A stretch of DNA of 59,081 nt, filler included, from Sphaerodactylus townsendi (lineage: Eukaryota), in the NCBI RefSeq assembly GCF_021028975.2. It is 4 parts of 3 records of this genome, joined end to end, with 100 filler letters (N's around TTAATTAATTAA, not from the genome) between each part and the next. Parts side by side here need not be neighbours in the genome. Positions count along the whole stretch, not along the records: positions 1 to 11,719 come from NC_059439.1; 3 more parts are not named here. The stretch is one strand, 5' to 3'. Position numbers and translations under genes: made by a program. Each line of letters opens with the position of its first letter. The first letter of the stretch is position 1. The notes under the pieces were generated by a model. That model searched no databases and was not told the DNA's origin. It saw only the letters and a program-made list of their open reading frames with translations. Below, one piece after another: positions 2,515 through 2,763 of this stretch.

Positions 2515-2763
2515 TGGTTCTGGTGGGTTTTCTGGGCTGTCTGGCCGTGGTCTGGTGGATTTTGTTCCTAACGTTTCACCTGCATCTGTGGCTGGCATCT
2601 TCAGAGGTGTCTCACAGTGATACACCTCCGTGATACACCTCTGAAGATGCCAGCCACAGATGCAGGTGAAACGTTAGGAACAAAATCCACCAGACCACGG
2701 CCACACAGCCCGGAAAACCCACCAGAACCAGTTGAATCCGGCCGTGAAAACCTTCGACAATAC
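2515..2763. mobile_element. Penelope-like (PLE) fold-back insertion with hammerhead motifs on both strands
   Basis: Inverted arms around a short spacer; perfect 11-bp TSD AACGCTATGAC (2504-2514, 2764-2774); CTGAAGA...GAAACGTT core in each arm. Confidence 0.75.

What the first reader, a model, noticed from the sequence alone, without database searches (positions are those of the whole stretch)
2515..2763. TSD-flanked fold-back elements with hammerhead-ribozyme motifs on opposite strands
Seen: six insertions (2515-2763, 3259-3876, 7769-8026, 36584-36787, 38195-38461, 42637-42831) share one layout: antisense arm, short variable spacer, sense arm (one arm ending ...CTTCGACAA or a decayed version), bounded by 11-15 bp TSDs. 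The best-preserved arms contain a minimal type I hammerhead, e.g. 7904-7946: stem I TCCT/AGGA, core CUGAAGA, an extra U, stem II GCC-A-GC/GC-A-GGC, GAAAC, then GUC or GUU. Helix III is reduced to a palindromic ACGT. Cores are readable on both strands in 2515-2763 and 38195-38461 and are mutated or truncated in at least one arm of the others. Established: Penelope-like element termini encode minimal hammerheads thought to cleave as dimers, and PLE insertions often carry an inverted terminal repeat. Inference: here the inversion recurs just upstream of the ribozyme, producing protein-free hairpins of about 200-270 bp that look like MITEs but have retrotransposon-length TSDs. This could be a stereotyped ribozyme-linked integration product or a non-autonomous retrozyme-like family.
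Basis: partly seen in the sequence, partly recalled or inferred. Interest (0 to 1): 0.7.

Follow-up and report, generated by a model that had tools for sequence, protein, structure and literature searches.

The report
Mirror-image Penelope retrotransposon stubs, lizard
These short mirror-image inserts are real stubs of a very abundant, already known kind of lizard jumping gene, and their ends suggest they were likely made anew at each landing by copying the front of the element's RNA onto both sides of a DNA cut, rather than being a self-copying ribozyme element.

Summary
Observation confirmed: all six fold-backs exist, plus two more (25747-25835, 26699-26885). All have 11-15 bp TSDs, and minimal hammerhead motifs lie where stated. 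The arms are the start of a Poseidon-type Penelope-like element (PLE): 98 of 116 nt match the printed Anolis PAc RNA from its AUG (by eye). Tail arms end at +112..+117 (PAc's in vitro reverse-transcription start, +111..+118); the other arms end at +82..+85 (one at +67). The roughly 33-nt tail is on exactly one arm in 8 of 8. All 8 central joints differ. The turn is not set by the ribozyme: 6 of 16 inner ends lie inside or downstream of it. In two families the farthest inner ends instead track a TATA/initiator-like pair (about -13 in family A, -48 in family B). Best reading: both cut strands prime cDNA on the RNA's 5' part, and the two cDNAs are joined by microhomology. The motifs are predicted to be locked in the hairpin. 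Inverted pLTR plus tail, and opposite-strand hammerhead pairs, are in print. This scan noted the same stubs before in this genome and in sharks. No autonomous ORF was found here. Ordinary; modest mechanistic value.

The parts
2515..2763 (.). E1 fold-back, family B. Tail-less antisense arm 2515-2617 (+84..-19), 12-nt locally templated spacer, sense arm 2630-2763 (-17..+117) with tail. TSD 2504-2514 / 2764-2774.
2638..2678 (+). Minimal type I hammerhead motif (3-bp stem I, G10.1-U11.1, GUU triplet); mirror copy at 2607-2567 on the minus strand. PLE ORF AUG at 2647.
3259..3876 (.). E2 fold-back, family B. Antisense arm with internally deleted tail 3259-3429 (to -21), sense tail-less arm 3430-3876 (from -44). 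Interrupted by inserts at about 3363-3412 and 3535-3830. TSD 3245-3258 / 3877-3890. Both cores damaged.
7769..8026 (.). E3 fold-back, family A (young). Tail-less arm 7769-7863 (+82..-13), 35-nt templated spacer including a 29-nt duplication, tail arm 7899-8026 (-15..+113). TSD 7756-7768 / 8027-8039.
7904..7946 (+). Intact minimal hammerhead motif (stem I TCCT/AGGA, GUC triplet); predicted cut after 7942.
9384..9471 (-). Single tail-less family A arm, inner end at -3.
17501..17660 (-). Single family B arm with tail (+114), inner end at -44/-45.
25747..25835 (.). Turns at a GGCC palindrome (+53), carries no hammerhead, tail on the right. TSD 25733-25746 / 25836-25849.
26699..26885 (.). Turns inside stem II (+12/+2), tail on the left. 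TSD 26686-26698 / 26886-26898.
36584..36787 (.). E6 fold-back, family A. Tail-less arm stops at +2, tail arm starts at -14, 2-nt microhomology. TSD 36569-36583 / 36788-36802.
38195..38461 (.). E7 fold-back, family A (young). Tail arm 38195-38322 (+116..-12), 56-nt mosaic spacer, short arm 38379-38461 (-16..+67). Cores intact on both strands. TSD 38183-38194 / 38462-38473.
42637..42831 (.). E8 fold-back, family A. Tail-less arm 42637-42732 (to -12), 13-nt spacer, tail arm 42746-42831 starting at +31, one base inside the predicted 3' cleavage product. TSD 42625-42636 / 42832-42843.
52621..52708 (+). Old single tail-less arm with a decayed core.

Best explanation
These are short head-to-head stubs of Poseidon-type Penelope-like retrotransposons, likely made anew at each insertion when both strands of a staggered DNA cut prime reverse transcription on the front end of the element's RNA. 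Steps: (1) the element's endonuclease would make an 11-15 nt staggered cut (TSDs shown; enzyme inferred). (2) One 3' end would prime at the internal start near +117 and the other near +84, which puts the tail on one arm only (ends shown; priming inferred from PAc in vitro). (3) Each cDNA would stop early or run off the RNA's 5' end, predicted at about -13 in family A and -48 in family B. (4) The two cDNA ends would be joined through 0-4 nt microhomology or short locally templated patches (joints shown). The hammerhead is a passenger of the pLTR/ORF start and is predicted to be locked in the hairpin; the stubs are likely dead.
For: Identity: 98 of 116 nt from the AUG match the PAc RNA printed in PMC11167929, without gaps (by eye), with the AUG at stem II and the cut at the same offset. 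Outer ends: +112..+117 in 7 of 8 tail arms (E2's tail is internally deleted) and +82..+85 in 7 of 8 tail-less arms. The same two ends are among the best-supported loose ends in two public runs: 38194 (+117; 343 and 264 contigs) and 38226 (+85; 201 and 240 contigs), with unrelated AT-rich flanks. Tail on exactly one arm in 8 of 8 (p=0.004 if the ends chose independently at 0.5). In E2, E5 and E8 each arm holds sequence the other lacks, so neither is a copy of the other. 8 of 8 joints differ; the spacers of E1, E3 and E7 are patchworks of adjacent arm sequence (11 of 12, 35 of 35, 41 of 56 nt; reached by 15, 0 and 0 of 1000 shuffles). Inner ends: 6 of 11 family A arms at -16..-12 and none further; 2 of 5 family B arms at -44/-45 and none further. 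Loose-end lines show a TATA-like run 30 nt upstream of a TCA motif at -13 (A) and -48 (B). PAc protein cuts and extends both strands, uses two start sites and does not need ribozyme cleavage in vitro.
Against: No autonomous RT + GIY-YIG copy was found, so the partner rests on homology to PAc. The PAc paper saw no strand difference in start-site use, so strict one-sided tails need a coupling that is not shown. E7's short arm ends at +67. Three of 5 family B inner ends (-17, -19, -21) lie near the ribozyme, not at the predicted start. The promoter motifs come from 30-letter majority lines (agreement 0.63 and 0.78; the family B line is from a related organism's RNA and its TATA run is cut at the limit); no transcript 5' end was seen. 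Family A arms reach 1-3 nt past the predicted +1. Asymmetric arms could also come from later deletion at hairpin centres. Only 16 inner ends were mapped exactly; run-level joint lists were truncated by the tool.
Confidence: 0.72

Rival explanations
1. Single-cDNA snap-back: one target-primed cDNA folds back on a palindrome, copies itself, and the endonuclease resolves the hairpin at the tail (self-priming as proposed for Adineta PLEs; EN-mediated tail as in Craig et al.).
For: Joints at palindromes in E4 (GGCC) and near AGATCT in E3 and E7. It explains the one-sided tail directly. Both arms belong to the same subfamily in the 7 elements where this can be read (E5 is too decayed). Proposed in PMC3846280 and PMC8557442.
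Against: The tail arm should then always reach at least as far upstream as its copy. Instead the tail-less arm reaches further in 5 of the 7 non-tied elements, by 23, 10 and 43 nt in E2, E5 and E8. PAc extends both strands in vitro.
Confidence: 0.15
2. A self-propagating non-autonomous hairpin (retrozyme-like or MITE-like) family, transcribed and re-inserted as a unit.
For: Uniform size and high density (about 2.1 kb, 3.5% of the window). A few joints recur in public runs at about 15-40 times single-contig depth (table 5c). Arm RNA is present in a related organism.
Against: 8 of 8 joints differ. The largest displayed joint has depth 4050 against more than 2e7 summed on the arm. A transcript of the hairpin carries one sense motif, and forcing its fold costs 39-82 kcal/mol in E1, E3, E6 and E7. 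Retrozymes are defined by same-strand tandem units.
Confidence: 0.06
3. Ribozyme-linked turn: self-cleavage or the ribozyme's fold fixes where copying stops and inverts.
For: 9 of 16 inner ends lie 2-11 nt upstream of stem I. E8's tail arm starts at +31. One displayed opposite-strand joint ends at +28, and a multi-copy tandem joint ends exactly at the GUC.
Against: Cleavage at +29 would remove the core from the arms, yet 10 of 16 arms run through the whole core. Family B reaches -30 to -44 in the window and in 3 of 4 displayed opposite-strand joints. HHR mutants do not change PAc insertion in vitro.
Confidence: 0.05
4. An ordinary DNA MITE whose terminal inverted repeats contain a chance hammerhead-like string.
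For: Fold-back shape and small size.
Against: TSD length varies from 11 to 15 bp, one end carries a non-inverted tail, inner ends vary, and the sequence matches a PLE ORF start.
Confidence: 0.01

Closest known systems
PAc / Poseidon_Ac of Anolis carolinensis (Frangieh et al. 2024, PMC11167929)
   Same: About 85% identical over the first 116 nt of the ORF (by eye); AUG at the start of stem II; same core and cut offset; insertion ends at +111..+118; tail between two start sites.
   Different: Here only stubs are seen, from at least three families with different 5' UTRs. Stem II has an A-A mismatch where PAc has U-G. The parts read do not describe short head-to-head stubs or where they turn.
Inverted-pLTR insertions of EN+ PLEs (Adineta Pen2/Pen2a, PMC3846280; general scheme, PMC8557442; D. 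virilis Penelope, PMC2377424)
   Same: Inverted 5'-truncated copy next to a pLTR, 30-40 bp tail on one end, 8-10 bp TSDs, palindromes at the joint. A TATA box 20 bp from a TCACT initiator-like motif lies in the pLTR, and the inverted pLTR is 37 bp shorter than the full one.
   Different: There an ORF lies between the repeats; here both halves are truncated to 30-165 nt, so only the inverted pair remains.
Minimal hammerheads of metazoan PLEs (Cervera and de la Pena 2014, PMC4209133)
   Same: Extra nucleotide before stem II, no helix III loop, palindromic 15.2-16.2. Pairs of motifs 100-700 bp apart on opposite strands were reported in Schistosoma.
   Different: That paper did not resolve TSDs, tails or joints of such pairs in the parts read.
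Non-LTR retrozymes (PMC7229834; bioRxiv 10.64898/2026.07.22.740005)
   Same: Protein-free, a few hundred bases, type I hammerhead, PLE-related, long TSDs.
   Different: Retrozymes are same-strand tandem repeats that give circular RNA; these are single inverted pairs with unique joints.

Membership tests
EN+ PLE, Penelope/Poseidon clade (stub) | Homology to the pLTR/ORF start of a known Poseidon element | tested here: met
   98 of 116 nt, no gaps, against the PAc RNA printed (by eye); peptide relatives in gecko and Anolis gene models
EN+ PLE, Penelope/Poseidon clade (stub) | Minimal hammerhead in the pLTR, with the AUG at stem II | tested here: met
EN+ PLE, Penelope/Poseidon clade (stub) | 30-40 bp tail on one end; inverted 5'-truncated copy; variable TSD | tested here: met
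   8 of 8 one-sided tails; TSDs of 11-15 bp; same ends in public runs
EN+ PLE, Penelope/Poseidon clade (stub) | Autonomous partner with RT and C-terminal GIY-YIG in this genome | tested here: inconclusive
   No genome held. No RT/GIY-YIG Pfam hit in the 38 ORFs scanned of 107 listed. Short-query protein searches returned only stub-like matches; these are weak negatives.
Minimal type I hammerhead ribozyme | Conserved core, stems I and II, NUH triplet | tested here: met
   Complete in 5 arms (both arms of E1 and E7, right arm of E3); 92.6% of stem cells paired in 6 distinct copies
Minimal type I hammerhead ribozyme | Compensatory stem changes | tested here: inconclusive
   0 of 9 pairs change on both sides; 5 of 9 never vary, so the set carries little information
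Minimal type I hammerhead ribozyme | Self-cleavage (dimeric or protein-assisted) | not testable with these tools
   PAc's motif cleaves only with protein; no pile-up of read ends in two RNA runs, which fragmentation could hide
Non-LTR retrozyme | Same-strand tandem units, each with a hammerhead | tested here: not met
   Motifs lie on opposite strands; no tandem array of the unit in the window
Non-LTR retrozyme | Circular RNA product | not testable with these tools
   Only ordinary paired RNA-seq of a related organism was laid
DNA MITE | Fixed short TSD and inverted repeats at both termini | tested here: not met
   TSDs of 11-15 bp; one terminus is a non-inverted tail

The most novel reading that the evidence does not exclude
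The stubs are a genome-wide record of a PLE-specific double-priming reaction: a dimeric RT-endonuclease primes both cut strands at two fixed, coupled internal sites on the 5' end of its own mRNA and copies to the cap. A minority of joints (E8; a multi-copy tandem joint ending exactly at GUC) would record templates that the hammerhead had cut in vivo, which the PAc study did not detect.
Probability: 0.4. Interest if true: 0.55.

Novelty: new member of a known kind. Interest (0 to 1): 0.27.

Why it matters
How PLEs make their inverted ends and one-sided tail is still open. If the reading holds, the many short stubs in one genome give a ready data set: outer ends mark the priming sites, inner ends mark the RNA's 5' end, and rare joints at the GUC could show ribozyme cleavage in vivo. 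For annotation, such hairpins should be filed as PLE stubs, not as MITEs, microRNAs (Rfam gives sub-threshold mir-1295 hits) or retrozymes. The elements themselves are ordinary, and the scan has noted them many times.

Tried and rejected
No whole genome is held, so copies could not be collected from an assembly. Rfam: no hammerhead hit. Metagenome scan with a 26-nt core pattern: 0 matches. Protein searches for a full-length ORF: none of 6 candidates; 1 of 165 candidates, a 207-aa gecko gene model; 5 hits among cluster representatives, none with an RT or GIY-YIG domain. Pfam on 38 of 107 long ORFs: no PLE domain. The look-up of sequencing runs listed no RNA holder. Two RNA runs of a related organism gave 5671 and 7105 reads in both orientations and no place where many molecules begin or end; this is no evidence on cleavage or circles. 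A single arm folds no better than shuffles (z -0.60). Covariation was uninformative. An empty-site test was not run. A 3' splice site at -12/-11 in family A was considered; at least three arms keep the CAG and a TATA-like run lies only about 25 nt upstream, so it was set aside but not excluded. In some searches E8's right arm was entered 10 nt too short (true start 42746), so its spacer test there is not used. Summed contig depth was not used as a copy number. PMC3014272 held nothing relevant.

Full report
Observation. The six elements are present at the stated coordinates, each as an antisense arm followed by a sense arm. The TSDs are 11, 14, 13, 15, 12 and 12 bp with 0, 0, 0, 2, 1 and 1 mismatches. 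Ten of 2000 random position pairs scored as well as the weakest. A BLAST of the arms against the window found two more fold-backs (25747-25835 and 26699-26885, TSDs of 14 and 13 bp) and three single arms. Together these pieces cover about 2.1 kb, 3.5% of the window. The motif at 7904-7946 is as described. Complete cores lie on both strands of E1 and E7 and on one strand of E3. Rfam returned only sub-threshold microRNA hairpin models. The host looks like a squamate, probably a gecko: the named peptide matches are Sphaerodactylus and Anolis gene models.

Identity. An AUG inside the core opens 38-39 sense codons that stay open in four copies from two families. Frangieh et al. 2024 (PMC11167929; parts 1-3 of 4 read, plus the text of two supplementary figures) describe PAc of Anolis. 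Its ORF starts at stem II, the cut lies 26 nt after the start codon, and reverse transcription starts internally at +111..+118 and at a second site, with the 'tail' between the two. The RNA printed in their methods matches E7's arm at 98 of 116 positions from the AUG, without gaps. I counted this by eye. Their Fig. 1G, which gives the second site exactly, is an image, and the GenBank supplement could not be read. The arms fall into family A (E3 and E7 at 98-100% to each other; E4, E6, E8 and the 9384 arm are older), family B (E1, E2, the 17501 arm) and an older third group (E5, the 52621 arm). No autonomous copy was found: none in 38 of 107 long ORFs, and only stub-like matches in three short-query searches. 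These are weak negatives.

Outer ends. Numbering is from the AUG. Tail arms end at +117, +113, +116, +116, +112, +116 and +116; E2's tail is internally deleted. Tail-less arms end at +82..+85 in 7 of 8; E7's ends at +67. The tail is on exactly one arm in 8 of 8. Laying two public runs on a family A arm placed 103,564 and 53,539 contigs. Loose ends at +117 and +85, with unrelated AT-rich flanks, were among the six best-supported rows shown for each run. The family is therefore very abundant; the tool's depth is not a copy number.

Inner ends and joints. The 16 inner ends are -17, -19, -21, -44, -15, -13, +53, +53, +12, +2, -14, +2, -12, -16, +31 and -12. Six lie inside or downstream of the motif, and only E8's +31 is near the predicted cut (+29/+30). 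All eight joints differ. They are blunt or share 2-4 nt (E2, E4, E5, E6), or they hold short patches copied from the adjacent arms (E1, E3, E7). E8 has a 13-nt spacer that was not validly tested. In E2, E5 and E8 the tail-less arm carries 23, 10 and 43 nt of upstream sequence that the tail arm lacks, while the tail arm carries the tail. Neither arm can then be a simple copy of the other, unless later deletion made the asymmetry.

What limits the inner ends. Six of 11 family A arms end at -16..-12 and none goes further (uniform null p about 3e-5; arms are not independent, and 4 of 6 insertions have such an end). Two of 5 family B arms end at -44/-45 and none goes further; the other three end at -17..-21. 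The loose-end lines beyond the window's copies show TATATATA at -43..-36 and TCAGAT with its A at -13 in family A (X1, 124 contigs, agreement 0.63). In family B they show a TATA-like run ending at -71 and TCACT with its A at -48 (X23, 115 reads, agreement 0.78). In both families 22 nt separate the two motifs. TATA at about -30 and a TCA initiator are recalled promoter rules; a TATA/TCACT pair is also described in an Adineta pLTR. Among displayed opposite-strand joints, 3 of 4 on the family B reference reach -30..-43, and 5 of 6 on the family A reference have an end at -7..-14. These lists are truncated, the family A reference itself ends near -12/-16, and symmetric joints may be invisible in contigs. 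The idea that the ends follow the promoter first came from an earlier scan note on a shark genome; the positions above are my own test.

Ribozyme. The motif fits the minimal PLE type of Cervera and de la Pena (PMC4209133, parts 1-2 of 4 read). They report low, dimer-dependent activity and already note pairs 100-700 bp apart on opposite strands. Nine aligned copies (6 distinct) show no compensatory change. Forcing stems I and II with an open core costs 2.5-3.4 kcal/mol in a single arm. In whole hairpins it costs 39-82 kcal/mol on six strands of E1, E3, E6 and E7, and 5 kcal/mol in E8, whose other arm lacks the motif; dimers were not modelled. PAc inserts equally well with a dead ribozyme. Against a purely passive role: E8's arm starts at +31, one displayed joint ends at +28, and one tandem joint whose upstream unit ends exactly at the GUC appears in both runs (depth 665 plus a CpG-decayed form of 620 in X1; 1562 in X5; the same record read on both references). 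This could be one small amplified subfamily.

Mechanism. Shown: TSDs, two fixed outer ends, one-sided tail, unique joints, homology to PAc. Inferred: a staggered cut by the GIY-YIG domain; priming of both strands at the two internal sites of the RNA's 5' copy of the pLTR/ORF start; run-off at the RNA's 5' end or earlier; microhomology-guided joining. My odds: PLE stub 0.97; made anew rather than copied as a unit 0.9; double priming rather than snap-back 0.75; promoter as the limit 0.65.

Comparison with what is known. Inverted 5'-truncated copies, the one-sided 30-40 bp tail and TSDs are described for EN+ PLEs (passages of PMC3846280, PMC8557442 and PMC2377424). Retrozymes are same-strand tandem repeats (passages of PMC7229834; part 1 of 5 and passages of bioRxiv 10.64898/2026.07.22.740005), which these are not. 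Six full-text searches gave no paper, as far as read, that states double priming with run-off at the transcription start for such stubs; subscription journals are mostly not covered. This scan holds 80 notes matching the key words in at least 25 genomes, and 21 in this genome. They are unchecked AI notes and are not counted as support.

Verdict. A real feature and a new member of a known kind. Interest 0.27.

Noticed in passing
runs X1 and X5 laid on window 38170-38345 (joint 38323 to 38282) and 17495-17720: A recurrent tandem joint that repeats about 45 nt holding the hammerhead, with the upstream unit ending exactly at the GUC. It would put two motifs on one strand; either a template jump onto a ribozyme-cut RNA or a small amplified subfamily.
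   Followed up: partly
window 8691-9206 (+): ORF with a NOP9-like PUF domain (Pfam E 6e-12), probably an exon of a host gene. The position of the elements relative to the gene was not worked out.
   Followed up: no
window 56874-57860 (-): Intact-looking 329-aa olfactory receptor ORF (7tm_4, E 2e-107).
   Followed up: no
window 49322-49717 (-): Fragment matching the SOUL heme-binding family (E 6e-11).
   Followed up: no
window 49898-50227 and 50606-50942: About 330 nt inverted pair at 96-97% that looks like CR1 LINE sequence (label recalled), next to an assembly gap; could be an assembly artefact or a CR1 inversion.
   Followed up: no
window 8375-8513, 22526-22669, 28591-28733: Other short fold-backs, unrelated to the PLE arms; they look like DNA-transposon MITEs (label recalled).
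   Followed up: no
window 3363-3412 and 3535-3830: Two later inserts in E2: a 50-nt piece with a T-rich end, and a 296-nt SINE-like copy (label recalled) flanked by an 8-bp repeat.
   Followed up: partly
P0006 (Anolis caspase-14 isoform X3 model), residues 1-39: The gene model begins with the PLE stub peptide; exonisation or a modelling artefact.
   Followed up: no
window 38323-38324 and 42733-42734: Two independent family A antisense arms continue with the same two bases (AG) after -12, unlike the family's upstream majority; chance (1 in 16) or a spliced or variant template.
   Followed up: no
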